The notes beneath the pieces are model-generated. The model saw nothing but the letters and a program-made list of their open reading frames with translations, had not been told where the DNA came from and searched no databases. Position numbers and translations under genes: made by a program. 64,000 bases of DNA from an uncultured Candidatus Saccharibacteria bacterium (lineage in GTDB: Bacteria; Patescibacteriota; Minisyncoccia; Minisyncoccales; CAZKCU01). The stretch lies in assembly GCA_964431915.1 (NCBI GenBank), contig CAYSLI010000001.1, positions 47,240-111,239 of the forward strand. The letters are read 5' to 3'. Shown here in pieces: positions 1,245-62,415 of this stretch (position 1 is its first letter; each line of letters begins with the position of its first letter).

Positions 1245-1260
1245 AGTAAAGAAGGGTTAA

Positions 1261-3503: not shown

Positions 3504-3507
3504 ATAT

Positions 3508-12359: not shown

Positions 12360-14063
12360 TTATTGAATCTTGCCCATTTCCTCGCTAATAGTCGGGTCAT
12401 CTGGCAAAGAGGCATTAACCGGATCGGCTGTAGCTTCCACCTTTTCTCCTGTCCAGACATCTTCTCCGATTATTCTAACCTGAGAAATAAGTTCAGGAAT
12501 CTCTCTTCTCTGGGCCGAATCAGGAGTTAAAGCAACTTGAAAGGAAATCTCAGGCTCGGGGCCCGAAATTCCTTTTCCTGCTGTTAACTCACCAATTTCC
12601 CAGACAATTTCCCGGCTCACAGAGTCAAAAGAAAACTTAGCTTCTTTTGAAGAAATTTCGCCAGTTAATCTCACCTGAAGAGGTAAATTAGCTTTAACTT
12701 TTAGATTTTTAACATCGTTGTAAAAATTTTTAGCCTGCCAAAAGATAGTATAAGTTGTTGTAGAGCCAACCCGGGGAGGAAGGGGCCCATAATTTTTAAA
12801 AGCTCCCTTGTCAAAATAACCTCTCTGAGAAATAGCCAGCTTTGTGTTAATTTTAGTAATAAATTCTTCTTTAGCCTCACTCAAGCTAATTTTAGTTTTG
12901 ATTTGAGGATTTTTGAGAGAGAAATCGTCTTTCACTCTTACCCAAAATCCAACTTTTCCTTCTTCCATACTGGATAGAAGACGTAATTGGGGAACTGTAA
13001 TATGGTCCCAGATAATTGAGTTTGAACCTTTTTGAAATTGGCCGGCTCCAGCTTGAAGAGTGTCAAAATCTAAAACTCCTCCTTCTAACTGAACTACCAA
13101 AAATAAATTTTCCAAACCTTCCTCTCCGGTATTTTTAAAGAAGACTTCGTAATACAGATAATCCCCGGGGCAAGCTGAATATTGAGGAGAATTATTAATT
13201 TGATAGGAGAGAAAAATCGAAGGTCTGGTAATTTCTATCCCCTTAGTTGTCTCTTTTAATAAAACAAATTCTCCTTCCTGCCAGATGCCTAAATTTGCCC
13301 GAAAGATTTTTGACTCTTGAACCTCTCCCCTTAGAATGCCGGAAACTTCAATTCTTCCTCCCCCAGCCTTATTTAAAAGTGGAATCTCCCATTCTGTTTT
13401 TCCTAAGGACTTTGGCTGACTCTCAAAAAACTCAAAGCCAGCAGGATATTCAATCCTTACTCTTAAATTAGAAATAGGATAATCTATATTTGAAAAATAA
13501 TTTAACCTAAAGAGAGTTTTTCTGCCAGGTTCAACTTTCGAAGGAAAATCAAATTCAAAAGTAAGAGGAACACTTTTAATTAAAGTAGTGAAAGTGGTGG
13601 CTGACTCATAGCGAGTTTTTAGATTTTTTGGTTTATAACTTAACCAAGCCTTGGCAATCTTAGCTTCATTTTCTCTACCTAATAATCTGGCTTTAAAATG
13701 GAAGGTTCTCTCTTGGCCAGGGTAGATATCCTCGAGTTCTTTTTCTTGTCTTGGAGATACTTCTTCTTGAGGCAGGGCTTCCTGATTTTCAGACCGGATT
13801 TCTTCTTCGACAACTATTGAATTTTTAGGATATTCAAAAATAAGTTTTGGCTCTTCTAACCTGATATTGCCATTATTTTTATATTTCACTATATATTCAA
13901 TTTCTTGAGCCATTTCTACTTCTTCTGGTCCCAAAATTTCCACTCTCAAAATCTCTTTGGAATAAATATTTCTTTGATAATACCAAAAACCGGCTACCCC
14001 TAAGATAATCGTTAAAATGATAATAACTTTTATTAATTTCCCCTTCATGTACCGAGCTTCCAT
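12360..14063 (-). CDS. membrane-anchored protein with repeated beta-sandwich (DUF11/CARDB-like) modules, function unknown; true start may be ATG at 14048
   Basis: N-terminal TM helix (LIKVIIILTIILGVAGFWYY) followed by repeated ~100-aa segments. The first 5 codons (MEARY) are contributed by repeat element copy A, so the start is uncertain. Confidence 0.6.
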   Translation of the reverse strand: MEARYMKGKLIKVIIILTIILGVAGFWYYQRNIYSKEILRVEILGPEEVEMAQEIEYIVKYKNNGNIRLEEPKLIFEYPKNSIVVEEEIRSENQEALPQEEVSPRQEKELEDIYPGQERTFHFKARLLGRENEAKIAKAWLSYKPKNLKTRYESATTFTTLIKSVPLTFEFDFPSKVEPGRKTLFRLNYFSNIDYPISNLRVRIEYPAGFEFFESQPKSLGKTEWEIPLLNKAGGGRIEVSGILRGEVQESKIFRANLGIWQEGEFVLLKETTKGIEITRPSIFLSYQINNSPQYSACPGDYLYYEVFFKNTGEEGLENLFLVVQLEGGVLDFDTLQAGAGQFQKGSNSIIWDHITVPQLRLLSSMEEGKVGFWVRVKDDFSLKNPQIKTKISLSEAKEEFITKINTKLAISQRGYFDKGAFKNYGPLPPRVGSTTTYTIFWQAKNFYNDVKNLKVKANLPLQVRLTGEISSKEAKFSFDSVSREIVWEIGELTAGKGISGPEPEISFQVALTPDSAQRREIPELISQVRIIGEDVWTGEKVEATADPVNASLPDDPTISEEMGKIQ

Positions 14064-14109
14064 TTATGGAAGCAAAGGTGAAGAAGAGGGCGAAGCCCTC
14101 TTCGCCTTA
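14046..14109 (-). repeat. GC-rich hairpin repeat element, copy A (long form, 64 nt), abutting the start codon
   Basis: Minus strand: TAAGGCGAAGAGGGCTTCGCCCTCTTCTTCACCTTTGCTTCCATAAATGGAAGCTCGGTACATG. Hairpins GAAGAGGG/CCCTCTTC and CTTCCA/TGGAAG. Near-identical to copy B. Confidence 0.85.
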
Positions 14110-19652: not shown

Positions 19653-21272
19653 TTACATTTTTTCTGGAGCGGAAATGCCCATTAGATATAAAACGTTTTT
19701 TAAAACAGTTTTAGTGGCTGAGATTAAAGCCAATCTTGCCTCAGTTAATTCTTTGTTATCTGATAAAACTTGACAATCTCTATAAAATTGGTGAAATTGA
19801 TGGGCAAGTTCAAATGCATACTGAGGTAATCTCTGAACCTGATAATCCTTTGTCGTATCCTCAACAATTTCTGGGAGTCTAATAAGTTGTTTAATTAAGT
19901 TTAACTCATTATCGTGATTTAATAATTGAAATTTTGCATTTTGCATTTTGGGTTTTGGATTTGATTTGATATTTGACATTTGGATTTTGGATTTTACAAG
20001 AATGCTATGTATTCTGGCGTGAGCATATTGAATATAATAAACCGGATTTTTTTCTGACTGTTTTTTAGCTAGAGTGAGGTCGAAATTTAAATGAGTATTA
20101 GCTGATTTTTGGAGAAAAAAGAATTTAGCAACATCAACTCCTACCTCCCGGAGTAATTCATCCATAGTAACAAGAGTTCCCCGTCTTTTTGAAATTTTCA
20201 GCTTTTTCCCTCTTTCAAGTATAGTTACAAATTGAAGCAATAAAATATCAAGTTTGCCTTTATAACCTAAAGCTTCCACTCCTGCCTGAAGACCTGCTAC
20301 ATCACCGGCATGGTCAGCTCCCCAAATATCTATTACTTTGTCAAATTTCTTCTTCTCAAATTTATAGTGGTGATAGGCAAGGTCACCTGCCAGATAAGTT
20401 TTATCACCATCCGCTTTGACTACTACCCTGTCTCTTTTGTCGTCATATTTGGAGCTTCTGAACCAAACTGCTTTTTCTTTTTGATAAATTAAATTTTTCT
20501 GCTCCAAAATCTTCAAAACTTTGTCTACTTGGCCGCTCTCGTGAAGGGTTTTTTCTGAAAACCACTCGTCATAATTAATCCCCATTCTGTCGGTTGTTTT
20601 TTTAATCATCTCATCAATAATAATTTTGCCAGCTCTCTCACCTGCCTTATGGGGCTCTTTTTCTTTGATTCTTTTGGCAAGTTCATCAATATATTTACCT
20701 TTGTATTTTGCCTCTTTGTCTTCCAAAATAGAATGTCCCAGAGCTAAAATTTGCATCCCGTAATCATTAATATAGTAAGCTTTTTCTACTTTAAATCCCA
20801 CTTTTTCCAGAACGTTTCCCAAAACGTCACCAAAAGGACCGCCTCGAGCATTGCCGACAGTTAGAGGACCTGTTGGATTTGCCGAAATAAATTCTACCTG
20901 GACTTTCTTTCCTTTGCCAATATTTAACTCACCAAACCTCTCTCCCTTCTTTAAAATTTCTCCAATTCTCTGTTGTAAATATTCTTTTGAAAGAAAAAAA
21001 TTAATAAACCCTGGTTTGACTACCTCAACTTTGTCAAAAAAATCAGATTTGAGACCTAAGATTTGAGATTTGAGATTTTCTGCTGTTTCCAATGGGTTTT
21101 TATTTATTTCCCGCCCGATTACCATCGCCGCGTTTGTGGCATAATCTCCGTGGGGCTTTTGTTCTGAATATTCTATCTGAATTTCAGGGATATCAATTTC
21201 TGGCAAAATTCCTTTTTTTTGGAGTAATTTTGTTGATTTTTCTATTAATTTTTTAATTTCTTCTCTTGCCAT
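19653..21272 (-). CDS. argS: arginine--tRNA ligase
   Basis: FISANPTGPLTVGNARG (HIGH-region equivalent). Add-1 N-terminal domain. C-terminal DALR anticodon-binding domain ending ...GISAPEKM. Confidence 0.95.
   Translation of the reverse strand: MAREEIKKLIEKSTKLLQKKGILPEIDIPEIQIEYSEQKPHGDYATNAAMVIGREINKNPLETAENLKSQILGLKSDFFDKVEVVKPGFINFFLSKEYLQQRIGEILKKGERFGELNIGKGKKVQVEFISANPTGPLTVGNARGGPFGDVLGNVLEKVGFKVEKAYYINDYGMQILALGHSILEDKEAKYKGKYIDELAKRIKEKEPHKAGERAGKIIIDEMIKKTTDRMGINYDEWFSEKTLHESGQVDKVLKILEQKNLIYQKEKAVWFRSSKYDDKRDRVVVKADGDKTYLAGDLAYHHYKFEKKKFDKVIDIWGADHAGDVAGLQAGVEALGYKGKLDILLLQFVTILERGKKLKISKRRGTLVTMDELLREVGVDVAKFFFLQKSANTHLNFDLTLAKKQSEKNPVYYIQYAHARIHSILVKSKIQMSNIKSNPKPKMQNAKFQLLNHDNELNLIKQLIRLPEIVEDTTKDYQVQRLPQYAFELAHQFHQFYRDCQVLSDNKELTEARLALISATKTVLKNVLYLMGISAPEKM
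19932..19998 (-). repeat. ~7-nt-period repeat block (ATTTTGC/ATTTTGG/ATTTGAT units, ~10 units) in frame inside argS
   Basis: attttgc attttgc attttgg gttttgg atttg atttgat atttgac atttgg attttgg attttac. Translated as ...KSKIQMSNIKSNPKPKMQNAKFQ... Confidence 0.9.
21047..21080 (-). repeat. heptanucleotide repeat (ATTTGAG units) in frame inside argS N-terminal domain
   Basis: atttgag acctaag atttgag atttgag attttc. Translated as ...ENLKSQILGLKSD... Confidence 0.85.
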
Positions 21273-21310: not shown

Positions 21311-21760
21311 ATGAAAATTTTAGCTAAAAACAAAAAGGCTTATTTTAATTATGAAATCCTGGAAAATTTTGAGGCAGGAATTTCTTTGATTGGCCAGGAA
21401 GTGAAATCAATAAAAACAAGGGGAGTGAGTTTGGCAGGTTCATATGTGGTTTTGAAAGACGAGGAAGTTTTTTGGATTGGGCTTAATATTCCTCCTTATC
21501 AGCCAAAAAATGCGCCAAAAGATTATAATCCAGCGAGAACACGAAAACTTCTTCTTAAAAAATCAGAAATTAAATATTTAATTGGTAAATCAAAGCAAAA
21601 AGGCTTGACTTTAATACCCCTTAGGTTATATACTAAAAATGGGAAAATAAAGTTAGAGTTCGGAACAGCAAAAGGAAAGAAAAAAGCTGATAAAAGAGAA
21701 TTAATTAAAAAAAGGGAAATAGAAAGACAAATTAAAAGAGAATTAAAAATGCGGGGATGA
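21311..21760 (+). CDS. smpB: SsrA-binding protein SmpB
   Basis: 149 aa. N-terminus NKKAYFNYEILExxEAGIxLxGxEVKS is the canonical SmpB signature. Followed directly by tmRNA. Confidence 0.95.
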   Translation: MKILAKNKKAYFNYEILENFEAGISLIGQEVKSIKTRGVSLAGSYVVLKDEEVFWIGLNIPPYQPKNAPKDYNPARTRKLLLKKSEIKYLIGKSKQKGLTLIPLRLYTKNGKIKLEFGTAKGKKKADKRELIKKREIERQIKRELKMRG

Positions 21761-22102
21761 CAGGGTTCGATGAGGAATTAACTAAAATAAGCAGGTTGAG
21801 TATTCTCAAATCTCATTAAACTTTGAGAAAAACAAAAATAAGTGCCAACTTATTTTCTAAACCTGCTTTAGCTTATGCTTAAAGCAGCATCCTCTTTGCT
21901 GATTCTCGATAGGTAAAGCTGGGTGTAATATTCATCGAGATAGACAAGTTTCGTTGTTTCGCGAACTTGTCGAAAAAAAAGAGACAAATAGTGGTACTAG
22001 GTTTTGTCTGTTTGATCCAGTATTCCAAAATTAAAACAGAACAAACTTGTAGAATTATTTTAGAAAAATTCCTCAGATGGGACTTCGATGTCCCCATCTC
22101 CA
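21753..22102 (+). ncRNA. ssrA: transfer-messenger RNA (tmRNA, ssrA), ~350 nt; tag ORF 21844-21879 ANLFSKPALAYA, stop TAA 21880-21882
   Basis: The 5' GGGGAUGACAGGGUUCGAUG pairs with the 3' ...GGGACUUCGAUGUCCCCAUCUCCA. This forms a tRNA-Ala-like acceptor stem with a G3:U pair and a T-arm. The internal resume frame GCC AAC ... GCU UAU GCU UAA ends in LAYA, like canonical tags. Adjacent to smpB. Confidence 0.85.
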
Positions 22103-22136
22103 CAACACCTCCCCAAATAAAAAGAGAAAGGAAAAT

Positions 22137-22664
22137 CTGTTTAAAAGACCATTAGTCAACAACCGAATAAGGGCTCCTCAGGTCAGGGTGATTGACAAGA
22201 CCGGAAAACAGCTGGGAATTTTGCCAATTGGAAAAGCGCTCCAGATAGCTAGGGAGCGTAATTTAGATTTAATTCAAGTCACCGAGAAGGTAATGCCACC
22301 TGTCTGTAAAATAATGGATTACGGGAAGTATCTTTATCAAGAAAAAAAGAAAGAAAAGTTAGCTCCAAAAAGTTCGGGTGAGTTAAAAGGGATAAGATTA
22401 GGGTTTGGAATTTCTCAACATGACTTGGAAGTCAGGGCAAAGTTAGCAGAAAAATTTTTAAAAAAAGGGCATAAAGTCAGAGTAGAACTAATCTTAAGGG
22501 GTCGGCAAAAAGCCCTTCCTGATTTTGCCAGAGAGAAAATGAACCAATTTCTTAGAATTTTAGAAGGGATTTTACCAATAAAAATTGAGCGGGAATTGAA
22601 AAGAGAGTCAAGAGGTTTTACAACAATAATCTCAAAAAGCAAAGAGGATAAATCCTCTTCTTAA
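22137..22664 (+). CDS. infC: translation initiation factor IF-3; start codon uncertain (non-ATG, CTG 22137 proposed)
   Basis: NNRIRAPQVRVIDxxGxQLGI...PPVCKIMDYGKYLYQ is canonical IF-3. The only in-frame ATG (22077) lies inside the tmRNA 3' end. IF-3 genes classically use atypical start codons. AAGGA lies 4 nt upstream of the CTG. Confidence 0.88.
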   Translation: MFKRPLVNNRIRAPQVRVIDKTGKQLGILPIGKALQIARERNLDLIQVTEKVMPPVCKIMDYGKYLYQEKKKEKLAPKSSGELKGIRLGFGISQHDLEVRAKLAEKFLKKGHKVRVELILRGRQKALPDFAREKMNQFLRILEGILPIKIERELKRESRGFTTIISKSKEDKSSS

Positions 22665-22674
22665 GCGAAGTAAG

Positions 22675-25816: not shown

Positions 25817-27064
25817 TTATGATAGCAATTCTTTAAAAAGTTTTAAATAGTCTCTTAAAAGCCTTGGCATTAAAAACTTTTCTCTAACTGTCTCTCTGGC
25901 ATCTTCTCCTAAATTTTTAGCTAGTTGAGGATTTTTAAGAAGCTGAGTAATTCTTTTTGCCGCTTCTTTGGGGCTAGAAACCAAAAATCCGTTTTTCCCG
26001 TCTTTAATCTGAAGTTTTATTCCCTCTCCCTTTCCACCAATAACTGCTTTTTCTTTCCACATCGCCTCGCTTAAGCTAAGACCAAATCCTTCCCTGGTTG
26101 AATTTTGGACAATAACATCAGAGGCAACTTGAATAGCATTGACAAAAACGTGGACTTTTAAACTGCCCAACATTTCCGGCTTAGAAAAGAGAAAGATGTC
26201 AGGGTCTTTTTCTGTTTTCTTTTTAATAAATTTAAAAATTTTCATTGCTTCTGGATCATCTTTGGCTAAGAAAAAACCAACCAAAGCCAGTTGTAAGTCA
26301 GGAATTTTCTTTTTGGCAATTTGATAGGCCTCAATTAGTTCTAAATATCCCTTCCAAGGGTCAAAACGGGAAACCTGGGAAATCAATCGCCGAGAGGAAT
26401 CTATTCCATATCCTTTTAAAATCTCTTTTGAGTAATCCAAATTTAGAGGTTGATTTTTGGGACTCAAAGGATTAATGGCCGGCGGAAAAACTACTGCCCT
26501 TTCTTTAACTTCCTTTTTAACATACTTCTTTGAGCTAAAGACAATTTTTTCATACATTCCAAAAATTCCGGCAAAAAATTTCCAAGTTTCGGGATTTGGA
26601 GACGTTAAATCAATATGTAACCGACAAATCGCCGGATGAAGATGGGGTAAATATAAAATTAAACCGGCTGGTTGAGGGTCGTGTATTACCCAAATATCAG
26701 CTTTCATATTTCGCATTAAAGAGGCACTTCTCTCTATATGCTCTAAATATCTTACCCGATGCCAAAAAGGAATGGAATATTTTTCGCCTTGAAGGGCATT
26801 GTGAATTTTTTTGGTAATCTTAAAAAAATCCTCTCTTGGTGGAACAGTACGCCACTCAGTTCTTATTCCCACTCCTTTCATTAAAGGAACCAGGTTTTTT
26901 AAAATTTCAGCCACCCCACCGCCCCGAGGAGTAGCATTAACGTGAGAAACTTTTAGCCCTTTAGAATATTTAGCCAATTCTCTTATTTCTTCAAAAAGCG
27001 CTTCAGAAATTAATTCTTTATATTCTTCTAATTTTTGAGTTGGAGTTTTAACTAAAGGAAGCAT
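25817..27064 (-). CDS. GT4 glycosyltransferase, trehalose synthase (TreT)-like
   Basis: N-terminal HVNATPRGGGVAEIL motif typical of TreT-type enzymes. C-terminal GT-B EGFGLSxxEAMWK motif. Confidence 0.72.
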   Translation of the reverse strand: MLPLVKTPTQKLEEYKELISEALFEEIRELAKYSKGLKVSHVNATPRGGGVAEILKNLVPLMKGVGIRTEWRTVPPREDFFKITKKIHNALQGEKYSIPFWHRVRYLEHIERSASLMRNMKADIWVIHDPQPAGLILYLPHLHPAICRLHIDLTSPNPETWKFFAGIFGMYEKIVFSSKKYVKKEVKERAVVFPPAINPLSPKNQPLNLDYSKEILKGYGIDSSRRLISQVSRFDPWKGYLELIEAYQIAKKKIPDLQLALVGFFLAKDDPEAMKIFKFIKKKTEKDPDIFLFSKPEMLGSLKVHVFVNAIQVASDVIVQNSTREGFGLSLSEAMWKEKAVIGGKGEGIKLQIKDGKNGFLVSSPKEAAKRITQLLKNPQLAKNLGEDARETVREKFLMPRLLRDYLKLFKELLS

Positions 27065-27542
27065 GTTTTTCTAAAAATTGGTGGGCTTTTTTGAGAGTTT
27101 CTTTGGCGTTTTCAAAAGTTAATTTTTTTATTGCTTTTTCGTAGAGCAACCATTCAAAACCGAGATGTTCAAAAGAAACTTTAATGTCTTCTTCTTCCGT
27201 TTCTGCTAAATAAAAAGTAACAAATTTCAGAATATTTTTTCCTTTAAATTTAAAGAAATATTTTATCCGCTCTTTAAAGCCTTCTAAGAATTCAATGTCT
27301 TTCAATCCAGTTTCCTCTTCCACTTCTCTTCTCACAGTTTCAATTTCCTTTTCCCCCTTTTCAATATGGCCTTTGGGTAAATCCCAATATTCTCTTGCTG
27401 CTTTAGGCGAAGAGGGTAAACCCTCTTCTTTACCCTTCGCTGCGGCTCGGGTAGCTAAAGAAGGATAGTGTAGTAATAAATATTTTATTTTTTTGTCCTC
27501 TCGGCGGAAAATTATAGCTCCGGCTGATTTTTCTAAAGGCAT
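27048..27542 (-). CDS. NUDIX hydrolase carrying an in-frame insertion of repeat element copy D
   Basis: Nudix box GHIEKGEKEIETVRREVEEETGL. The segment ATRAAAKGKEEGLPSSPKA is encoded by the antisense of the repeat element. Confidence 0.85.
   Translation of the reverse strand: MPLEKSAGAIIFRREDKKIKYLLLHYPSLATRAAAKGKEEGLPSSPKAAREYWDLPKGHIEKGEKEIETVRREVEEETGLKDIEFLEGFKERIKYFFKFKGKNILKFVTFYLAETEEEDIKVSFEHLGFEWLLYEKAIKKLTFENAKETLKKAHQFLEKHASFS
27403..27453 (+). repeat. GC-rich hairpin repeat element, copy D (short form), antisense and in frame inside the Nudix gene
   Basis: TTAGGCGAAGAGGGTAAACCCTCTTCTTTACCCTTCGCTGCGGCTCGGGTA. Shares GGCGAAGAGGG..CCCTCTTC and CGCTGCGGCTCGGG with the other copies. 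Confidence 0.85.
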
Positions 27543-30415: not shown

Positions 30416-30449
30416 CGGTAAAAACCTCGGTTCAATTAAGGACCGAGGT
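30416..30449 (-). terminator. rho-independent terminator after the DUF1858 gene
   Basis: 8-bp stem ACCTCGGT/ACCGAGGT, followed on the minus strand by TTTTT. Confidence 0.6.
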
Positions 30450-30523
30450 TATTTATTTACTATCGAATCCCTAGCATCTCTTTACTTAGTTTTATCTTAC
30501 TCTTTTGACTTAAATGGAAAATT

Positions 30524-30753: not shown

Positions 30754-31713
30754 TTACCCTTTCAATTTTTTCTTAAATTCTTCCACAATTTCTACTGGAG
30801 CCGGATCAATTTTATATTCTTTTGCCAAATAATAGCTTACCCAATCAGAGAGAATTAAATTTTCGAACACTTTTTCTAAAACATTTTTTTTCTCAAGTTC
30901 AACAAAATCAACTTCAATGCCTCCTTTCTTTAATAGATTGGAGGTCAACTCCATTGCTTTTAAAATCTTTGGATGGTCATTTGAATCTCGAAGTATAATC
31001 ACATGAAAATTTTTGAGATTACTATATCCTACAATCTCTGAATGAATAAGCTCAGGGAAATAGTTCCAAAAAGCCATTATTTTTGAATTTTCATTGAAAT
31101 TTATCTTCCAAATCCGAGCCAAAGATTTAAATTTATTTGAAGCATAGATAAGGGGAATTTTGCCAACTAATTTTTCAGCTAAAATTTTTCCCTGAGTTTC
31201 TAATTCAAGAGGCTTTAGCTTTTCAGCCATTTTTAAAATCTCATCAGAATTATCTTCAATTATTCCAGAATTAGATAAGACTTTAACCAAAGCCCCAAAA
31301 AGATAGCCGATGGCCCAGCGAGGTTGGATTTTGACAGAAGGCAGAGAAACAAAAGGTGTATTATATTTTTTGGCAGACTTTGCAAGTTCCCCTCCAGCAG
31401 TAATAGCTGCTACTTTAAGTTTTCTCTCTTGAGTTTCTTTAAAAGCTGAAATTGTTTCTTTAGTATTTCCAGAAAAAGAAATACAAATTATTAAGCTTTC
31501 TTTAGTTGTTTGAGGAGGAAGGTTGTAGCTGCGATGAATATAGAGAGGTAATTTTAAATCATTAAAAAAAATAACTAAAAGGTTAGCAGGTAAAGCTGAG
31601 CCGCCCATTCCACAAATTATAATATTTTCAAACCTTCCCTCAACCCTAATATCTTTTGCTCTTTCTATTCCTTCTTTAAATTGTTTTGGAAAATCTAAAA
31701 TTATTTTTCTCAT
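30754..31713 (-). CDS. bifunctional phosphoglucose/phosphomannose isomerase (archaeal-type SIS domain PGI/PMI)
   Basis: SIS motif ICGMGGSALPANLL and a second SIS half. About 320 aa, typical of the PGI/PMI family. Confidence 0.82.
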   Translation of the reverse strand: MRKIILDFPKQFKEGIERAKDIRVEGRFENIIICGMGGSALPANLLVIFFNDLKLPLYIHRSYNLPPQTTKESLIICISFSGNTKETISAFKETQERKLKVAAITAGGELAKSAKKYNTPFVSLPSVKIQPRWAIGYLFGALVKVLSNSGIIEDNSDEILKMAEKLKPLELETQGKILAEKLVGKIPLIYASNKFKSLARIWKINFNENSKIMAFWNYFPELIHSEIVGYSNLKNFHVIILRDSNDHPKILKAMELTSNLLKKGGIEVDFVELEKKNVLEKVFENLILSDWVSYYLAKEYKIDPAPVEIVEEFKKKLKG

Positions 31714-31762
31714 ACCCGAGCCACAGGCGTCAGGTGAAGAAGAGTAAACATTCTTCGCCTAA
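31711..31762 (-). repeat. GC-rich hairpin repeat element, copy C (short form), ending on the PGI/PMI start codon
   Basis: Minus strand: TTAGGCGAAGAATGTTTACTCTTCTTCACCTGACGCCTGTGGCTCGGGTATG. Occupies most of the 63-nt intergenic spacer. Confidence 0.8.
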
Positions 31763-38304: not shown

Positions 38305-38865
38305 ATTTTTAGTTTAACACATTTTTAAAAACTAAAAAAGAGGTAAAGTTCCTCTCCGCCTGTTTACTTTAGAGAATTAAGATGTATTCAAAACTAAAAC
38401 CCGCTAGAGGATTTCTCTAACGGGGTTTAGTGAGGGGGAAATGGTCTTAACAAATTTAGTCATTTGAATCCACTGGGTCGGACATAGCCAGGCAATTGCT
38501 TTTTAACCTCTTTTATTAAAACCGCTTGTCCTTAGAGGAGAATCCCTCGCACCCCCTCGCTTTATATATTAATTCCCTAAAAATATCTGTCAACCTGTTT
38601 GAGTTTAAGGAAAGTGCTGGCGATACATTTCTTTTCCTAATTTTCTTTTCAGAAATTTTTTATTAGCTTGAATTAAAATATTGCCGAATTATTAAGCTTT
38701 TAATAACCCACAAGTTCTCCCCAGTTTATTAACATCTTTCTGAATTTGATGTTTATTTTACTCTCCTGTTGAGTTTATGGTATAATTCGTTAAGAAAGGA
38801 AAACCAAAAAATTAAGATATAATTAAAGACACAAAATATTTTATCTTTTGATTTTAGACAAACAC
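38305..38865. other. candidate replication-origin region upstream of dnaA (also holds a GC-rich structured island and the dnaA promoter)
   Basis: 561-nt non-coding gap at the point where the predominant coding strand switches from minus to plus. AT-rich stretches. One 7/9 DnaA-box-like TAACCCACA at 38703-38711. Confidence 0.4.
38758..38786 (+). promoter_or_regulatory. candidate extended -10 promoter for dnaA
   Basis: TGGTATAAT (TGn + TATAAT at 38781-38786) about 80 nt upstream of the dnaA ATG. The -35 is weak. Confidence 0.45.
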
Positions 38866-40215
38866 ATGACTAAGGAAGAATTGTGGCAAGCGGTTTTGTC
38901 CCAAATCCAATTAAATATTTCTCAGGCTAATTTTAGCACCTGGTTTAGAAATACCGGGATTCTCTCCCAGAAAGAAGGCAAAGTTATAGTTTCTGTCCCT
39001 AATTCTTTTGCCAAAGAGTGGCTTGAAAATAAATACAACAAGATTATTTTTAAGCTCTTGCACAACTTGAATGGAGAAATCAAAGAGATTAAATATGCTG
39101 TCGCCCGACAAGGATTAAAAGTTTTGAAAAAAACCTCTTTCTCTTATCCAGAATCGGACCAACTTGAATTTCAAGAACTAAGAATAGACAAAGACACTAA
39201 TCTTAACCCCCGCTATACTTTTGAAAATTTTGTGGTCGGTCCTTTCAATGAACTACCGCAGGCTGCTGCCTGGGCGTCCTCAAAAAATCCTGGCCTTGTC
39301 TATAATCCCTTGTTTATTTATGGAGGGGTGGGTCTCGGTAAAACCCATTTATTACAGGCAGTCGGTAATGAGGTAATTAAAAATTTTCCAGAAAAAAAAA
39401 TAAAATATATTCCTTCCGAAAAATTCACCTCTGGAGTGGTAACGGCAATTAAAAATCATACTATGGAAAATTTTAAAACGAAATACCGACAGATAAATGT
39501 CCTTATTATTGATGATGTTCAATTTCTGGCTGGGAAAGAAAAAACCCAAGAAGAGTTTTTCCATACTTTTAATACTCTTTACGAAAAAAATAAACAAATA
39601 ATTCTTTCCTCTGACCGGCCCCCAAAGGCTATCCCGGCACTCACCGAAAGATTAAGGTCCAGATTTGAGGGAGGAATGATAGCTGATATCGGTTACCCTG
39701 ATTTCGAAACAAGAATGGCTATTCTTAAAACAAAGGCCCAAGAAAAAAAAATTAGCCTTCCCGAAGAAACCCTTGCCTATATTGCATCAAACATCCAAAG
39801 AAACATTAGGGAGCTTGAAGGAGCTTTGAACAGATTAGTTGCTCATCAAAAGTTAAATAACCAACCATTAGAGCCGGAAGAAGCTAAATCTTTGCTTAAA
39901 AAATTACTCCTCTCCTCAACTAGAGCAGCCACGCCGAAAAAAATAATCAGAGCAGTAGCTAAATTTTACGACCTTAAAGAAAATAACCTTTTAGATTCCT
40001 CGCGTAAAAGAGAGATCGTCAGACCTCGCCAAATTGCGATGTATTTATTAAGAGAAGACTTAAAAAGTTCCTACCCTTTTATAGGAAGGAAAATGGGAGG
40101 AAAAGACCACACCACGGCTATTCATTCCTACGAGAAAATTTTAAAAGAACTTGAAATAAACGAAAATTTAAAGGAAGAAATTGAGTTAATTAGACAGCTT
40201 GTTTTTAGCATCTGA
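38866..40215 (+). CDS. dnaA: chromosomal replication initiator protein DnaA
   Basis: MTKEELWQAVLSQIQ...FSTWF N-terminus, Walker A GGVGLGKTHLLQA, DDVQF box, C-terminal HTH (GGKDHTTAIHSYEKI). ATG 38866 preferred over TTG 38848. Confidence 0.96.
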   Translation: MTKEELWQAVLSQIQLNISQANFSTWFRNTGILSQKEGKVIVSVPNSFAKEWLENKYNKIIFKLLHNLNGEIKEIKYAVARQGLKVLKKTSFSYPESDQLEFQELRIDKDTNLNPRYTFENFVVGPFNELPQAAAWASSKNPGLVYNPLFIYGGVGLGKTHLLQAVGNEVIKNFPEKKIKYIPSEKFTSGVVTAIKNHTMENFKTKYRQINVLIIDDVQFLAGKEKTQEEFFHTFNTLYEKNKQIILSSDRPPKAIPALTERLRSRFEGGMIADIGYPDFETRMAILKTKAQEKKISLPEETLAYIASNIQRNIRELEGALNRLVAHQKLNNQPLEPEEAKSLLKKLLLSSTRAATPKKIIRAVAKFYDLKENNLLDSSRKREIVRPRQIAMYLLREDLKSSYPFIGRKMGGKDHTTAIHSYEKILKELEINENLKEEIELIRQLVFSI

Positions 40216-40251
40216 CTTTTTACTTTTTTACTGAAAATTTCCTTGGTTATT

Positions 40252-40361
40252 AGTGGAAAAGACATGGCATTAAAAGTGGAAAATCTCTTTAAAAATTTCT
40301 TTTTCTTTTCTTCTTTTTGTTATCCCTAATTAATTAACTACTTCTTTACTTATTTTCCATT
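40252..40361. promoter_or_regulatory. cluster of four DnaA-box-like 9-mers in the dnaA-dnaN spacer
   Basis: AGTGGAAAA (rc TTTTCCACT) at 40252-40260 and 40275-40283. TTATCCCTA at 40320-40328. TTTTCCATT at 40353-40361. Each is 6-7/9 to TTATCCACA. Confidence 0.4.
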
Positions 40362-40420
40362 AGTTTTCTTTTAACTAATCTATCTAAAAAAAATATTTTT
40401 ACCCAGTGCCTATAACTATA

Positions 40421-44784: not shown

Positions 44785-44952
44785 CTAAACTTCCTCTTTC
44801 TTTTCTTCCTCTGCGGGAGTTTCCTCTGCGGGAGTTTCCTCTGCGGGAGTTTCCTCTGCGGGAGTTTCTGCAGGAGGAGTTTCAGGAGTTTCTCCGGGAG
44901 TCTCTGGCTCTTGATTAATAACCGGAGTTAAAATTTTTTCTTTGTAAGTCAT
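44785..44952 (-). CDS. 55-aa acidic Pro/Glu/Thr repeat protein (not in ORF track, <60 aa)
   Basis: ATG 44952 ... TAG 44787-44785. MTYKEKILTPVINQEPETPGETPETPPAETPAEETPAEETPAEETPAEEEKKEEV. Preceded by a consensus promoter and followed by a terminator. Confidence 0.5.
   Translation of the reverse strand: MTYKEKILTPVINQEPETPGETPETPPAETPAEETPAEETPAEETPAEEEKKEEV
44808..44867 (-). repeat. 15-bp tandem repeat x4 (CCTCTGCGGGAGTTT), coding for (ETPAE)n
   Basis: Four perfect 15-mers read directly, with degenerate copies continuing to ~44900. Confidence 0.95.
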
Positions 44953-47332: not shown

Positions 47333-47398
47333 TATTTATTCACGCGAGCCGAGCGAGCGCAGCAAGCAAGGCGAAGCGTTAAAATGAAAGAGGAGATT

Positions 47399-49342: not shown

Positions 49343-49359
49343 AATTTATGTTAAAATAA

Positions 49360-49425
49360 ACCCAGTAGAAGAATTTCGACAATTTTAAAAAATTTGAGAA
49401 GCAAGTCGAAATTTCTCTACTGGGT
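49360..49425 (+). promoter_or_regulatory. 21-bp imperfect inverted repeat forming a long hairpin in the 5' leader of the 5'-3' exonuclease gene
   Basis: ACCCAGTAGAAGAATTTCGAC ... GTCGAAATTTCTCTACTGGGT (about 19/21 pairing, 24-nt loop), ending 6 nt before the ATG. Confidence 0.45.
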
Positions 49426-49431
49426 AAAACA

Positions 49432-50391
49432 ATGAACGGCAAGAAAAAACGCTTGATAATTATTGACAGCAATTCTTTAATCCACCGGGCTTATCATGCT
49501 TTACCGCCATTAACTACAAAAAAAGGAGAATTGATTAATGCTGTTTATGGTTTTTTATTGGTTTTTTTGAAAGTCCTGAAGGAATTTCAACCAGATTTTA
49601 TTGCAGCTTGTTTTGATTTACCGGGTCCGACTTTCCGTCATAAAAAATTTAAGGGATATAAAGCAAAAAGGCCTCCAACTCCAGAAGAACTGTGTCGGCA
49701 AATTCCAAAGGTAAAAGAAGTTTTAAGAGGATTTAGCGTTCCCATTTTTGAAAAAGAGGGATTTGAAGCCGATGACATTATTGGGACTATTTCCAAACTT
49801 GCTCCAAAAAAACAAGTAATACCTGAAATTGGAACCGTTATTTTAAGCGGCGACTTGGACACTTTGCAGTTAGTTAATCCTTGCACCAAAGTTTATGTCT
49901 TAAGAAAAGGGGTAAAAGATATTGTTTTATACGATGAAAATTTAGTTAAAGAAAAATTTCAAGGGTTGGTCCCAGAACAAATTTTAGATTTTAAATCATT
50001 AAGAGGAGATGCTTCAGACAATATTCCCGGCGTTACCGGAATTGGCGAAAAAACAGCGATTGAACTTCTCTTAAAATTTGGAAGTTTAGAGAACATATAC
50101 AAAGAGATCGAAGAAGATGAACCTTCTTCTCTCTCCTCCGCTGCGGCTCGGGAGATCGAAGAAGAAAATCCTGAGAAAGCAAAAAATCTTAAACCAAAGC
50201 TAAAAGAAATTCTTTTAAAATATAAAGAACAAGCTTTTCTTTCTAAAACTTTGGCTCAAATTAATAAAAATACTCCAATAGATTTTAATTTAGAAAAATG
50301 CCGCTGGAGAGACTATGATAAAGAAAAAGTAATTCAAATTTTAAAAAACTTAGAATTTTATAGTTTATTAGAAAGACTGCCAAAAGCTTAA
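49432..50391 (+). CDS. 5'-3' exonuclease (FEN/Pol I N-terminal domain homologue) carrying an in-frame copy of the repeat element
   Basis: LIIIDSNSLIHRAYHALP, GFEADDIIGT, LSGDLDTLQLV, LRGDASDNIPGVxGIGEKTA (H3TH) motifs. Insert ...DEPSSLSSAAAR... Confidence 0.9.
   Translation: MNGKKKRLIIIDSNSLIHRAYHALPPLTTKKGELINAVYGFLLVFLKVLKEFQPDFIAACFDLPGPTFRHKKFKGYKAKRPPTPEELCRQIPKVKEVLRGFSVPIFEKEGFEADDIIGTISKLAPKKQVIPEIGTVILSGDLDTLQLVNPCTKVYVLRKGVKDIVLYDENLVKEKFQGLVPEQILDFKSLRGDASDNIPGVTGIGEKTAIELLLKFGSLENIYKEIEEDEPSSLSSAAAREIEEENPEKAKNLKPKLKEILLKYKEQAFLSKTLAQINKNTPIDFNLEKCRWRDYDKEKVIQILKNLEFYSLLERLPKA
50108..50153 (+). repeat. GC-rich hairpin repeat element, copy E (short form), sense and in frame inside the exonuclease gene, flanked by a 14-bp direct repeat
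   Basis: TCGAAGAAGATGAACCTTCTTCTCTCTCCTCCGCTGCGGCTCGGGA. GAGATCGAAGAAGA occurs at 50104-50117 and again at 50152-50165 (48-nt spacing = 16 codons). Confidence 0.8.
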
Positions 50392-54014: not shown

Positions 54015-54890
54015 ATGCCCGAACTCCCCGAAGTAGAAACAACAATAAGAGATTTAAATAAAAAGGTCCTTAACAGGACTTTTATTGATGCTTGGACCGA
54101 TTTCCCCAAGATAGCAAGAAAACCCGAAGATTTCGAGCAACTTAAAAAAGAAATCATGGGTAAGAAAATTCAAAAAATCTGGCGAAGAGGGAAAAATATT
54201 ATTTTTAATTTATCAAAGAACCGCTCTTTGTTAATTCATCAAAAATTAACTGGCCACTTACTCCTGGGTAAGTGGGAATTCAGCGAGGGGAAATGGATTT
54301 CTCCTGCCGGACCCCTGGCGGAGAAAATTAATACCTATATTCATTTATTATTTACCTTAGATAATGGTCAAATGTTGGCTCTGTCAGATTTAAGAAAATT
54401 TGCCAAGGTCGAACTTTGGGACAATGAAGGACTTAAAAAGGAATTATGTTCTTTCGGCCCGGAACCCTTAGAAAAAGATTTTACTTTTGAAAAATTTAAA
54501 GCCTGTTTTAAAAAGAAAAGAGGTAAGATAAAGCAAGTTTTAATGGACCAAACTGTCATTGCTGGGATTGGCAATATTTTCTCTGATGAAATTTTGTGGC
54601 AGGCGAAAGTTTATCCCTTAAAAGATGTTTCAAAATTAACTGATGAGGAATTGAAAGAAATTTATCAGGCAATGAGAGAAATTTTAACAAAGGCAATTAA
54701 ACTTGGTGGAGAAAGTATTTCTGATTTCCGGAGGATTTCTGGAGAAAGAGGATACTTTGACAAGGAAAGAAAAGTTTATCGCCGAGAAGGAGAGCCCTGT
54801 CCGCATTGCGGCACAAAAATAAAAAGGGTAAAATTAGGGGGCAGAAGTGTCCATTACTGCCCTAGTTGTCAAAGGGCGAAGAGGACTTAG
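54015..54890 (+). CDS. mutM: formamidopyrimidine-DNA glycosylase (Fpg/MutM)
   Basis: MPELPEVET N-terminus (catalytic Pro2), H2TH region, C-terminal zinc finger CPHCGxxI...CPSCQ. The ATG 53961 extension is rejected. The last 5 codons and the stop lie in repeat copy B. Confidence 0.9.
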   Translation: MPELPEVETTIRDLNKKVLNRTFIDAWTDFPKIARKPEDFEQLKKEIMGKKIQKIWRRGKNIIFNLSKNRSLLIHQKLTGHLLLGKWEFSEGKWISPAGPLAEKINTYIHLLFTLDNGQMLALSDLRKFAKVELWDNEGLKKELCSFGPEPLEKDFTFEKFKACFKKKRGKIKQVLMDQTVIAGIGNIFSDEILWQAKVYPLKDVSKLTDEELKEIYQAMREILTKAIKLGGESISDFRRISGERGYFDKERKVYRREGEPCPHCGTKIKRVKLGGRSVHYCPSCQRAKRT

Positions 54891-54935
54891 TCATCTTCTT
54901 TACCTTCGCTTCCACAAATGGAAGCTCGGTCTATG
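54873..54935 (+). repeat. GC-rich hairpin repeat element, copy B (long form), spanning the fpg stop codon to the holA start codon
   Basis: AGGGCGAAGAGGACTTAGTCATCTTCTTTACCTTCGCTTCCACAAATGGAAGCTCGGTCTATG. Aligns end to end with copy A. Confidence 0.85.
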
Positions 54936-62342: not shown

Positions 62343-62415
62343 GCCCTCATAGCTCAACCGGATAGAGCGTGACCCTCCGGAGGTCAAAATCTCCGTTCGA
62401 GTCGGAGTGAGGGCA
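62343..62415 (+). tRNA. tRNA-Arg (anticodon CCG)
   Basis: Hand fold: GCCCTCA/TGAGGGC acceptor, GCTC/GAGC D stem, TGACC-CTCCGGA-GGTCA anticodon arm, CTCCG-TTCGAGT-CGGAG T arm, discriminator A. 73 nt; CCA not fully encoded. Confidence 0.92.

What the first reader, a model, noticed from the sequence alone, without database searches (positions are those of the whole stretch)
27403..27453. Repeat copy D is inserted antisense and in frame inside a Nudix hydrolase
The Nudix ORF reads ...LLLHYPSL-ATRAAAKGKEEGLPSSPKAARE-YWDLPKGHIEKGE.... The hyphenated ~20-aa segment is the reverse-complement translation of the repeat element. It lies just upstream of the Nudix box, where family members normally go almost directly from the beta strand (LLL..) to the xWxxPGG/KG turn. 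The frame is preserved and no stop is introduced. This is the behaviour known for Rickettsia palindromic elements (RPEs), which also insert in frame into ORFs.
Basis: partly seen in the sequence, partly recalled or inferred. Interest (0 to 1): 0.7.

Follow-up and report, generated by a model that had tools for sequence, protein, structure and literature searches.

The report
Mobile hairpin repeat inside Nudix gene
A 48-base hairpin-forming repeat has recently inserted, in frame and without a stop, into a loop-coding part of a Nudix (Ap4A-hydrolase-like) gene of a Nealsonbacteria-like CPR bacterium. It belongs to a large, currently active repeat family that sits in many essential genes of these bacteria, much as the palindromic elements of Rickettsia do.

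Summary
Window 27404-27451 (equally 27405-27452) is an exact 48-nt insertion in the Nudix ORF (27048-27542, minus strand). It adds 16 residues (TRAAAKGKEEGLPSSP), not about 20.

- **Empty site:** a sister strain, 97-98% identical over 37 kb, lacks exactly these 48 nt.
- **Young insert:** an ortholog whose flanks are only 69% identical carries the same insert at 47/48.
- **Family membership:** a profile built only from copies in other genomes finds this copy at E=2.7e-11.
- **Structure:** AlphaFold places the insert as a disordered loop between two beta strands. The Nudix box is intact.
- **Family:** two covarying hairpins, in a short 48-nt and a long 52-61-nt form. It is abundant in Nealsonbacteria-like MAGs. 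An exact 30-mer occurs in at least 83 distinct contexts, 49 of them in long ORFs. Hosts include topA, uvrA, lepA, cysS, alaS, pnp and ftsZ.
- **Target:** copies lie directly 5' of TAnnyGAAGA, which mimics the element's own 5' end. This would explain the recurring reading frames and the repeated hits at this Nudix site.
- **Open points:** I found no transposase, so the mobilisation mechanism is inferred. I found no published description.

It works like a Rickettsia palindromic element but is not a member of that family.

The parts
27404..27451 (+). The inserted block: a 48-nt short-form element, TAGGCGAAGAGGGTAAACCCTCTTCTTTACCCTTCGCTGCGGCTCGGG, in canonical orientation on the plus strand and antisense to the Nudix gene. 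The boundary is ambiguous by 1 nt (equally 27405-27452).
   Evidence: It is absent from the sister strain (L001/L002), whose flanks are near-identical. A profile built only from other genomes scores it at E=2.7e-11. The L008 ortholog carries it at 47/48 identity, although the flanks there match at only 116/168.
27409..27428 (+). Hairpin 1: GAAGAGGG, loop TAAA, CCCTCTTC.
   Evidence: Folding predicts it on both strands. Across 36 family copies this stem keeps pairing through compensatory changes: 4 of its 8 pairs show changes on both sides.
27432..27452 (+). Hairpin 2, short version: ACCC-TTC-GC-TGCG-GC-TC-GGGT. In the long form the inner stem is extended, for example GCTTCCAtaaaTGGAAGC.
   Evidence: Fold prediction. 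The inner stem of the long form covaries in 4 of 5 pairs.
27452..27468 (+). Native target motif directly 3' of the element: TAGCTAAAGAAGGATAG. On the gene strand it encodes Y-P-S-L-A. It resembles the element's own 5' end, TAGGCGAAGAGGGTAAA.
   Evidence: The empty allele has it as TTGCTAAAGAAGGATAG. The 3' flanks of 74 independent copies share the consensus TAnnyGAAGA.
27048..27542 (-). Host gene: a Nudix hydrolase of the Ap4A-hydrolase type, 164 aa. The insert forms residues 31-46.
   Evidence: Pfam NUDIX at E=1.1e-16. PDB sequence search gives NUDT2 (3u53) at E=1.5e-18. Foldseek gives human Ap4A hydrolase 4ijx at E=2e-13.
27303..27371 (-). Nudix box, residues 58-80 (GHIEKGEKEIETVRREVEEETGL). 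It matches GX5EX7REUXEEXGU and is intact downstream of the insert.
   Evidence: Read directly from the translation. These columns are invariant or nearly so in alignments A1 and A6.
50104..50156 (+). Second intragenic copy, sense orientation, in the 5'-3' exonuclease ORF 49432-50391. It adds DEPSSLSSAAAREIEE and is flanked by a perfect 14-nt direct repeat, GAGATCGAAGAAGA.
   Evidence: The sister strain (P0123, L130) has the empty site AAAGAGATCGAA|GAAGAAGAAAAT. Other homologues carry a different subfamily at the same site, and P0138 carries two tandem copies.
54872..54934 (+). Long-form copy filling the mutM-holA junction. The last codons and the stop of mutM (..AKRT*) lie inside it, and the likely holA ATG follows 3 nt after CTCGG.
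   Evidence: An orthologous copy sits at the same junction in Nealsonbacteria CP179888.1 (L068).
14047..14109 (-). Long-form copy between recO and a DUF11/DUF7619 gene, in sense orientation, ending at the ATG at 14063.
   Evidence: E=2.3e-18.
31712..31762 (-). Degenerate short-form copy between the HD-domain gene and the PGI gene, ending at the ATG at 31713. The sister strain has it too.
22635..22668 (+). Partial copy (hairpin 1 only) overlapping the infC stop codon, upstream of rpmI.
   Evidence: E=2e-4.

Best explanation
Window 27404-27451 is one copy of a small, non-autonomous, hairpin-forming repeat element. It has a 48-nt short form and a 52-61-nt long form, and it is abundant in Nealsonbacteria-like Patescibacteria (CPR).

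**What is shown**
- The copy entered the Nudix gene recently, in antisense orientation.
- It sits at the part of the gene that encodes the loop between strand beta2 and the strand before the Nudix box.
- It adds exactly 48 nt and is stop-free in the frame used, so the ORF stays open. Read through, it would add a 16-residue hydrophilic segment (TRAAAKGKEEGLPSSP). This segment is predicted to be disordered, and the rest of the predicted fold and the Nudix box are unchanged.
- Copies lie immediately 5' of a target with consensus TAnnyGAAGA, which mimics the element's own left end (TAGKCRAAGAGG).

**What is inferred about consequences**
- In coding DNA this target is usually read as Glu-Glu codons (GAA-GAR) on one strand or Ser-Ser codons (TCT-TCN) on the other.
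- This would explain why intragenic copies recur in two reading frames: sense GEEDKSSSSPFAAAR and antisense TRAAAKGEEEDLSSSP.
- It would also explain why the Nudix codons P-S-S-A (CCT TCT TCA GCA) are hit again and again.

**What is inferred about mobilisation**
- The element adds exactly one unit, has no terminal inverted repeats, carries two structure-conserved hairpins and forms tandem arrays.
- I judge a single-strand, hairpin-recognising enzyme acting in trans (an HUH/Y1-type or rolling-circle-like reaction) the most likely agent.
- Enzyme-free ectopic template switching, primed by the homology between the target and the element end, is the main alternative.
- Loss probably occurs by slippage between the flanking direct repeats.

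For this Nudix copy I see no sign of a host function. It is best read as a tolerated selfish insertion.
For: **Insertion polymorphism**
- The sister strain (L001/L002 and L130) is 97.1-98.2% identical over about 37 kb.
- It lacks exactly these 48 nt, with flanks matching at 165/168.

**The insert is younger than the host-gene divergence**
- Window against L008: insert 47/48, flanks 116/168.

**Family membership**
- E=2.7e-11 with a profile built only from other genomes.
- About 90 copies in low-GC CPR loci.
- An exact 30-mer of the element occurs 123 times on 120 metagenome contigs, in 83 distinct flank contexts.

**Current activity**
- Of the indels of 3 nt or more between the two strains, at least four are clear copies of this family (window-only at 27404 and 50113, sister-only at 48797 and 53064) and a fifth, sister-only block at 27067 holds an element-like hairpin.

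**Hot spot**
- At least three element subtypes occupy the same Nudix site in different lineages (c27 type, L128 type, L129 type), plus a tandem pair in L009 and nested inserts in L127.
- The exonuclease site behaves the same way.

**In-frame insertion in real genes**
- topA, uvrA, lepA, an amidase, cysS, a Mur ligase, alaS, pnp and ftsZ carry copies inside or between Pfam domain matches.
- 49 of 83 contexts lie in long ORFs.

**Structure of the element**
- 8 of 13 stem pairs show compensatory changes.

**Target motif**
- The 3' flank reads T94 A70 n n T50 G64 A93 A59 G64 A58 (percent).
- 'T N4 GA' occurs in 42/74 flanks against 2% background.
- The motif pre-exists in both empty sites that I could examine.

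**Unit-length behaviour**
- Tandem arrays have a 48-nt period (L009; L197 with three or more; L152).

**Protein effect**
- AlphaFold with and without the insert.
- The closest solved structures are Ap4A hydrolases.
Against: - No transposase, integrase or HUH enzyme was found in the window, in the syntenic loci, or beside dense element clusters. The mobilising agent is therefore unknown.
- Polarity (gain here or loss in the sister strain) rests on parsimony: the nearest relatives P0005, P0011 and P0012 are all empty. The empty site in L006 (CCTTCTTCGCCTA) looks like a chimera of the two direct repeats, so precise excision does happen.
- The filled and empty alleles differ by one extra base (TT against TA) at the junction. 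A simple cut-and-paste does not predict this.
- Translation of the insert is inferred from frame conservation only. I had no expression data.
- Long-form copies are mostly sense-oriented and sit directly before start codons in operons, including ribosomal-protein operons. The family as a whole may therefore have an RNA-level role.
- The target motif is not met at every site. The copy present only in the sister strain upstream of tsaE fits it poorly.
Confidence: 0.85

Rival explanations
1. Spread without any dedicated enzyme. New copies arise by ectopic template switching or short-patch gene conversion. A nascent strand ending in a native GAAGA/TCTTC-like sequence anneals to the matching sequence beside an existing copy, copies one unit, and returns to the original template. 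This differs from the best explanation only in mechanism.
For: - Exactly one 48-nt unit is added each time.
- At the Nudix site the repeat next to the element's 5' end is the canonical element sequence and the other repeat is native, as this model predicts.
- The junction base changes from TT to TA, which fits a heteroduplex patch.
- The target mimics the element end.
- Tandem arrays and an apparent repeat-mediated excision occur.
- No transposase was found.
Against: - The homology is short and imperfect: 9/16 at the Nudix site.
- Very high copy numbers, and near-identical copies in diverged genomes, are easier to obtain with an active enzyme.
- The conserved T at the junction (94%) and the precise boundaries look like a defined cleavage site.
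Confidence: 0.3
2. The segment is an old part of this Nudix lineage. It was precisely deleted in the sister strain and in other relatives, so it is not a recent gain in the window's lineage.
For: - More distant orthologs (P0002, P0003, P0008) carry an insert at the same site.
- The empty site in L006 looks like a recombinant of the two flanking repeats.
Against: - The three nearest relatives (93%, 88% and 85% identical) are empty.
- The insert matches L008 at 47/48 where the flanks match at 116/168. An anciently shared segment would not be this well conserved.
- The filled orthologs carry different element subtypes.
- Even if this rival were true, the segment would still be a family copy.
Confidence: 0.1
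3. The insert is kept because it does something for the host. It might act as an mRNA structure affecting translation or stability, or as a peptide loop that modulates the Nudix enzyme.
For: - The hairpins are conserved by covariation.
- The mRNA-strand fold is -24.6 kcal/mol, z=-2.7.
- Long-form copies are sense-oriented before start codons in operons, and one is conserved between species at the mutM-holA junction.
- The filled Nudix allele was recovered from several samples.
Against: - The same element sits in unrelated genes, in both orientations and several frames.
- Its presence is polymorphic between near-identical strains.
- Most orthologs lack it.
- The loop is predicted to be disordered.
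- Covariation between copies is also expected if structure is needed for mobility.
Confidence: 0.08
4. The segment arose by chance low-complexity expansion or is an assembly artefact.
For: The encoded peptide is of low complexity (A, K, E, G, S, P).
Against: - Nucleotide-level similarity extends to intergenic copies and to copies read in other frames.
- The identical allele occurs on independent contigs from several samples.
- An exact 30-mer is shared with at least 120 metagenome contigs.
Confidence: 0.01

Closest known systems
Rickettsia palindromic elements (RPEs; Ogata et al. 2000 and 2002, as summarised in the review PMC10969869)
   Same: - Short palindromic, hairpin-forming, non-autonomous repeats.
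- Found both between genes and, at high frequency, in frame inside unrelated housekeeping genes.
- They encode a recurring peptide.
- They sit where the fold tolerates them.
- They occur in small, AT-rich, reduced genomes.
   Different: - Host phylum: Patescibacteria/CPR, not Rickettsia.
- Size: 48-61 nt, against the ~150 bp the review gives for RPEs.
- Unrelated sequence.
- A defined target motif that mimics the element end.
- Insertion of exactly one unit, and tandem arrays.
- Clear ongoing activity between strains that are 97-98% identical.
- I did not run a sequence comparison with RPE consensus sequences.
Bacterial MITEs that make in-frame fusions (Coxiella QMITE1, intragenic ERIC, Anabaena MITEs; PMC5896051, PMC10969869)
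   Same: Small non-autonomous repeats that can sit inside ORFs and add peptides.
   Different: - This element has no terminal inverted repeats.
- It has no consistent short target-site duplication.
- No parent insertion sequence was seen.
- It is much shorter.
REP/BIME elements with RAYT, and IS200/IS605-derived palindrome-associated elements (PMC3733652; otherwise my own knowledge of these families)
   Same: - Small GC-rich imperfect palindromes whose structure is conserved more than their sequence.
- No terminal inverted repeats.
- Mobilisation is thought to go through single-stranded hairpins and an HUH/Y1 enzyme.
- Insertion next to a short specific target without duplication.
   Different: - REPs are extragenic by definition and carry a GTAG or CGTC tag. 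This element is often intragenic and has no consistent tag.
- Its two hairpins differ from each other.
- No RAYT or TnpA gene was found in the DNA I could inspect.
Coding palindromes in organelle genes (Nematomorpha mitochondria, PMC6649704; yeast mitochondrial GC clusters, from my own knowledge)
   Same: GC-rich palindromes inserted in AT-rich genomes, inside protein-coding genes, and read through in frame.
   Different: These occur in organelles. The Nematomorpha palindromes are much longer and perfect. They are not a dispersed family with a defined target motif.

Membership tests
Rickettsia palindromic elements (RPE) | Occurs in Rickettsia genomes and belongs by sequence to one of the described RPE families | tested here: not met
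   The host is a Nealsonbacteria-like CPR bacterium, judged from the names of homologues and genomes. The unit is 48-61 nt, against the ~150 bp given for RPEs in PMC10969869. I did not compare it directly with RPE consensus sequences.
Rickettsia palindromic elements (RPE) | Palindromic repeat inserted in frame in protein-coding genes, giving a recurring peptide at positions the fold tolerates | tested here: met
MITE (miniature inverted-repeat transposable element) | Terminal inverted repeats | tested here: not met
   The 5' end is TAGGCGAAGAGG and the 3' end is GCTGCGGCTCGGG. The termini are not reverse complements of each other. The inverted repeats are internal hairpins.
MITE (miniature inverted-repeat transposable element) | Short target-site duplication of fixed length | tested here: inconclusive
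   T/TA occurs at both junctions of many copies (T 75%, A 79% on the 5' side; T 94%, A 70% on the 3' side). The empty Nudix site has TT, not TA. Some copies have 12-14-nt direct repeats that include the element's own 5' end.
MITE (miniature inverted-repeat transposable element) | A parent insertion sequence with matching ends in the genome | not testable with these tools
   No transposase domain was found in the window or in the inspected loci. Whole genomes could not be scanned.
REP/BIME with RAYT | Extragenic location | tested here: not met
   49 of 83 contexts lie inside long ORFs. Ten host genes were confirmed by Pfam.
REP/BIME with RAYT | GTAG or CGTC tag next to the palindrome (PMC3733652) | tested here: not met
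   The position before TA is G in only 37% of contexts. GTAG appears mainly where copies are in tandem (CTCGGTAGGCG).
REP/BIME with RAYT | A RAYT (Y1 transposase-like) gene in the same genome | not testable with these tools
   None was found in the 64-kb window or in the loci fetched.
IS200/IS605-type single-strand elements and their miniature derivatives | Subterminal hairpins, no terminal inverted repeats, no duplication, and insertion next to a short specific sequence | tested here: inconclusive
   The element has two hairpins, no terminal inverted repeats, adds exactly one unit and has a specific flank motif. However, the two hairpins are unlike each other, the motif is longer than 4-5 nt, and no TnpA was found.
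Nudix hydrolase, Ap4A-hydrolase type (host gene) | Nudix box GX5EX7REUXEEXGU and the Nudix fold | tested here: met
   Residues 58-80 (GHIEKGEKEIETVRREVEEETGL) match the box. Pfam NUDIX scores E=1.1e-16. Foldseek to human Ap4A hydrolase 4ijx gives E=2e-13, TM 0.74-0.86.

The most novel reading that the evidence does not exclude
CPR bacteria of the Nealsonbacteria type host a very small (48-nt), highly active protein-coding hairpin element that selects its targets by resemblance to its own left end (TAnnyGAAGA). It would move as a unit-length single-stranded or templated copy, either without a conventional transposase or through a still unidentified HUH-type enzyme. It keeps adding disordered loops to essential proteins (topA, uvrA, lepA, aminoacyl-tRNA synthetases, ftsZ). 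If so, this would be a new mode of self-guided integration and a main source of protein-length variation in ultra-small genomes.
Probability: 0.3. Interest if true: 0.85.

Novelty: new variant of a known kind. Interest (0 to 1): 0.72.

Why it matters
In-frame 'selfish DNA inside proteins' has so far been regarded as largely a Rickettsia peculiarity (PMC10969869). This finding shows the same behaviour in a very different lineage with tiny genomes.

Three features make it directly testable:
- The element is only 48 nt long.
- Related strains provide filled and empty alleles, so gain and loss can be followed in nature.
- The target motif predicts where copies land and in which frame they are read.

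It also has practical consequences:
- It explains many odd insertions and length differences in CPR protein families.
- It matters for annotation and for alignment-based phylogeny of CPR genomes.
- It gives a handle on how essential proteins in streamlined genomes tolerate, and perhaps use, new disordered loops.

Tried and rejected
- **Known RNA families.** A scan of the whole window against Rfam at gathering thresholds found only a tmRNA (21753-22105) and a tRNA (62343-62415), and nothing at any element copy.
- **Phage origin.** The element pattern gave no match in the viral contig collection.
- **Mobilising enzyme.** Pfam scans found only housekeeping genes. I scanned window ORFs, the gene lists of syntenic loci and genes beside dense element clusters. 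The reverse-transcriptase cassette present in relatives is absent from the window.
- **Classical MITE reading.** Rejected because there are no terminal inverted repeats, the TA duplication is not supported at the empty Nudix site, and the long direct repeats include element sequence.
- **Long target-site duplication** (5' hairpin arm supplied by the target). Rejected for the Nudix copy, because the repeat next to the element's 5' end is the canonical element sequence, not the native one.
- **Matches in GC-rich genomes** (Streptomyces, Acidobacteriota and others) from the genome scan. Rejected as chance. In 79 such loci, totalling 606 kb, only five weak matches covering mainly hairpin 1 remain.
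- **My first flank statistic.** On the mixed 75-copy set it showed only a weak own-versus-cross difference in direct-repeat similarity. The target motif became clear only with the 74 contexts of the young subfamily.
- **Literature.** Searches for CPR, Patescibacteria or Nealsonbacteria together with palindromic elements, MITEs or in-frame insertions found no description of this family. The library covers open-access papers and bioRxiv only.
Full report

Pfam identifies it as a NUDIX domain protein (E=1.1e-16), and the match starts only after the odd segment. The window is AT-rich (31-39% GC), and the segment is a local GC-rich island.

The plus strand at 27403-27455 is similar to five other places in the window:
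- 14047-14109 (-)
- 22635-22668 (+, partial)
- 31712-31762 (-)
- 50104-50156 (+)
- 54872-54934 (+)

To avoid circularity I built a profile only from 64 copies found in other genomes. It still finds the Nudix copy at E=2.7e-11. The nucleotide similarity therefore does not fall apart under a proper alignment.

**2. Is it an insertion?**

- *Homologue lengths.* Of the 120 closest Nudix homologues, most are 142-149 aa and run directly from HYPSS to (A/P)K..EYWDLPKGH.
- *Empty site.* The nearest relative, P0005 (93% identical), has HYPSL-A-KAAREYW.
  - Its contig (L001 and L130, JGI 3300028837) is collinear with the window over about 37 kb at 97.1-98.2% nucleotide identity.
  - At this site it lacks exactly 48 nt: GCTGCTT|TTGCTAAAGAAGG there, against GCTGCTT|TAGGCGAAGAGGGTAAACCCTCTTCTTTACCCTTCGCTGCGGCTCGGG|TAGCTAAAGAAGG here.
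- *Size of the insert.* It is 16 residues (T31-P46), not about 20.
- *Not an artefact.* The filled allele occurs on independent contigs from other samples (L003-L005).
- *Age.* An ortholog whose flanks are only 69% identical (116/168) carries the same insert at 47/48 (L008). The insert is therefore far younger than the divergence of the host genes, or it is being renewed from other copies.
- *Polarity.* The three nearest relatives (93%, 88% and 85% identical) are all empty, so gain in this lineage is the parsimonious reading.
- *Excision.* It probably also occurs. The empty site in L006 (CCTTCTTCGCCTA) looks like a crossover product of the two imperfect direct repeats that flank filled sites.

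**3. Effect on the protein**

The Nudix box (residues 58-80, GHIEKGEKEIETVRREVEEETGL) is intact.

| Protein | Length | Mean pLDDT | Low-confidence segment |
|---|---|---|---|
| With insert (window) | 164 aa | 86.6 | residues 34-47 below 50 |
| Without insert (P0011, 88% identical) | 146 aa | 93.1 | none |

Both models have the same order of strands and helices. The closest solved structures are Ap4A hydrolases:
- Sequence search: human NUDT2 (3u53) at E=1.5e-18, with the alignment starting after the insert.
- Foldseek: 4ijx at E=2e-13, TM 0.74-0.86.

The insert is thus predicted to be a disordered loop between strand 18-26 and the strand before the Nudix box. Translation itself is inferred, not shown.

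**4. The family**

*Distribution*
- A degenerate pattern scan of one genome per species found clusters of copies in three Candidatus Nealsonbacteria assemblies (JAPLXL01, PETJ01 and the complete 639,534-bp genome CP179888.1).
- It also found copies in about ten low-GC MAGs labelled 'uncultured Candidatus Saccharibacteria' or 'bacterium'.
- Matches in GC-rich genomes are chance.
- Profile searches of the low-GC loci give about 90-120 copies in 384 kb. These loci were chosen around hits, so this density is biased upward. The window itself has 6 copies in 64 kb.

*Anatomy*
- The order is TA, GGCGAAG, hairpin 1 (GAAGAGGA-loop-TCCTCTTC), TTCACC(C)TTCGC, hairpin 2, CTCGG(G/T).
- The long form (52-61 nt) has an extended hairpin 2, such as GCTTCCAtaaaTGGAAGC, GCTTTCGCtacGCGAAAGC or GCCCGCCaagGGCGGGC.
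- The short form (48 nt per inserted unit) has only GC-TGCG-GC.
- Both stems keep pairing through compensatory changes: 8 of 13 pairs show changes on both sides.
- Rfam has no matching family.

*Recent spread*
- An exact 30-mer of the short form occurs 123 times on 120 JGI metagenome contigs.
- These copies fall in 83 distinct flank contexts.

**5. Intragenic copies are common and always readable**

- *Second copy in the window.* The window's 5'-3' exonuclease carries a copy in sense orientation, adding DEPSSLSSAAAREIEE.
  - The sister strain has the empty site AAAGAGATCGAA|GAAGAAGAAAAT.
  - Other homologues carry another subfamily (EEDKSSSPPFTAAR) at the same place, and one has a tandem pair.
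- *Other host genes.* Ten further host ORFs were checked with Pfam. All are ordinary housekeeping genes with the element inside or between domain matches: topA, uvrA, a family-5 solute-binding protein, lepA, an amidase, cysS, a Mur ligase, alaS, pnp and ftsZ.
- *Metagenome set.* 49 of 83 contexts have at least 40 open codons on both sides, 36 in sense and 13 in antisense orientation.
- *Lengths.* Additions are multiples of three wherever an empty allele is known: 48, 48, 48, 96, and 48 with a 3-nt GAA slip.
- *Open frames.* Four of the six frames of the short form are usually stop-free.
- *Frames actually used.* Mainly two: sense GEEDKSSSSPFAAAR and antisense TRAAAKGEEEDLSSSP, which is the Nudix type.

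**6. The family is active now**

Indels of 3 nt or more between the window and its sister strain include:
- Two copies present only in the window, at 27404 and 50113.
- Two copies present only in the sister strain, at window positions 48797 and 53064.
- A sister-only block of 137+19 nt at 27067, beside the 3' end of the Nudix gene, that contains an element-like hairpin.

**7. Target rule**

- In 74 independent contexts of the young subfamily, the 3' flank after CTCGGG reads T94 A70 n n T50 G64 A93 A59 G64 A58 (percent).
- This gives TAnnyGAAGA, which mirrors the element's own 5' end: T75 A79 G97 K C94 R A100 A95 G94 A95 G97 G87.
- 'T N4 GA' occurs in 42/74 flanks against 2% of random positions.
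- At both sites where an empty allele is known (the Nudix and the exonuclease), the motif is already present in the uninterrupted gene. It is therefore a property of the target and is not brought in by the element.

Three consequences follow (inference):
- In coding DNA the motif is mostly Glu-Glu codons on one strand and Ser-Ser codons on the other. This sets the reading frame of the insert and explains the two recurring peptides.
- The Nudix codons P-S-S-A (CCT TCT TCA GCA) are a natural target. This explains why at least three element subtypes, a tandem pair and nested inserts occupy this one loop in different lineages.
- Start-codon contexts such as TATATGAAAG fit the motif. This could account for the many long-form copies that end 3 nt before an ATG.

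**8. How it moves (inferred)**

The element has these properties:
- It has no terminal inverted repeats.
- It has no consistent short duplication.
- It adds exactly one unit.
- It forms tandem arrays with a 48-nt period (L009, L152, L197).
- It has two structure-conserved hairpins.

I found no transposase, integrase or HUH enzyme in the window or in any inspected locus. The pattern is also absent from the viral contig collection.

I consider two mechanisms plausible:
- A trans-acting enzyme that recognises single-stranded hairpins, in the manner of IS200/IS605, RAYT or rolling-circle systems.
- Enzyme-free ectopic template switching primed by the homology between the target and the element end.

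The second mechanism fits two details of the Nudix junction. The repeat on the element's 5' side is canonical while the other is native, and the junction base changes from TT to TA. On the other hand, the sharp boundaries and the very high copy number favour an enzyme. Neither mechanism is shown.

**9. Comparison with known systems**

| Known system | Agreement | Disagreement |
|---|---|---|
| Rickettsia palindromic elements (PMC10969869) | Behaviour: in-frame intragenic palindromic repeats | Host, size and sequence. Not a member |
| MITEs | Small, non-autonomous | No terminal inverted repeats, so the definition fails |
| REPs | GC-rich imperfect palindromes | REPs are extragenic and tagged; this element is neither |

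Searches of the open-access literature and bioRxiv found no description of such elements in CPR bacteria.

**10. Verdict**

The single Nudix copy is an example of a larger and apparently undescribed phenomenon: a small, currently active, protein-coding hairpin repeat family in Nealsonbacteria-like bacteria, with a target rule that follows the element's own end sequence.

Noticed in passing
window 49357-49424: A 68-nt insertion, present here and absent from the sister strain (L130), of a different and AT-richer palindrome: CCCAGTAGAAGAATTTCGAC...GTCGAAATTTCTCTACTGGG, flanked by TAAA. It lies just upstream of the exonuclease gene and may be a second mobile hairpin family.
   Followed up: partly
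window 47340-47406: A 67-nt GC-rich block (..GCGAGCCGAGCGAGCGCAGCAAGCAAGGCGAAGCG..), present only in the window, at the 3' end of the T2SSE-type ATPase gene (47399-48739, minus strand). It partly resembles the antisense strand of the element.
   Followed up: partly
window 48797 and 53064 (empty here); L130 about 9375-9433 and about 13579-13662: The sister strain carries antisense element copies that the window lacks. One is a 59-nt copy directly upstream of the tsaE start codon. The other is a 75-nt block at the C-terminal end of the histidine kinase gene.
   Followed up: partly
window 27065-27072; L001 about 10424-10586: At the junction of the Nudix stop codon and the glycosyltransferase start, the sister strain has 137+19 extra nt containing an element-like hairpin (GTCGAAGAAAACTTCGTTCTTTTCTTC). 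This gives its Nudix protein a different, longer C-terminus (189 aa against 164 aa).
   Followed up: partly
window 30418-30466; L001 5145-7119; L006 5018-6792: Two relatives carry a cassette of about 1.9 kb between the DUF1858 and YjbQ genes, with a reverse transcriptase (RVT_1, 356-377 aa) and a 113-aa ORF. The window lacks it. I did not determine whether it is a retron, a diversity-generating retroelement or a group II intron.
   Followed up: no
window 54872-54934; L068 806-866: The long-form copy at the mutM-holA junction supplies the last codons and the stop of mutM (..CQRAKRT*). It is conserved at the same junction in the complete Nealsonbacteria genome CP179888.1, so this copy is old or is being kept.
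   Followed up: partly
L018 (JAPLXL010000004.1) 217-5912; L052: Long-form copies fill the spacers of the rpsM-rpsK-rpsD-rpoA-rplM operon and the dnaK-dnaJ region in sense orientation, ending 3 nt before start codons. This may indicate an RNA-level role for intergenic copies.
   Followed up: partly
window 44791-44880: A tandem array of a 15-nt unit (TTCCTCTGCGGGAGT, about six copies). On the minus strand it would encode a TPAEE-like pentapeptide repeat.
   Followed up: no
window 55962-56121: A 160-nt AT-rich block, present in the window and absent from the sister strain, inside a small minus-strand ORF (55894-56154).
   Followed up: no
window 38848-41551, and the GC-skew minimum near 44-48 kb: dnaA and dnaN lie here. 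Gene orientation and cumulative GC skew switch nearby, so the window probably contains the replication origin.
   Followed up: no
window 6341-6409 and 19926-19994: Intergenic TTTGGATTT-rich repeats. The second differs from the sister strain by indels of 16 nt and 4 nt.
   Followed up: no
L127 159-785 (P0013); also P0006, P0014, P0045, P0097: The same Nudix loop also receives an unrelated 33-nt GC-rich hairpin (AAGCCCCGTAGTAGAGTAAACTCACTACGGGGT, encoding KPRSRVNSLRG). In L127 three different inserts are nested there, giving a 208-aa protein.
   Followed up: partly
window 21753-22105 and 62343-62415: A tmRNA gene and a tRNA gene, the only Rfam matches in the window.
   Followed up: no
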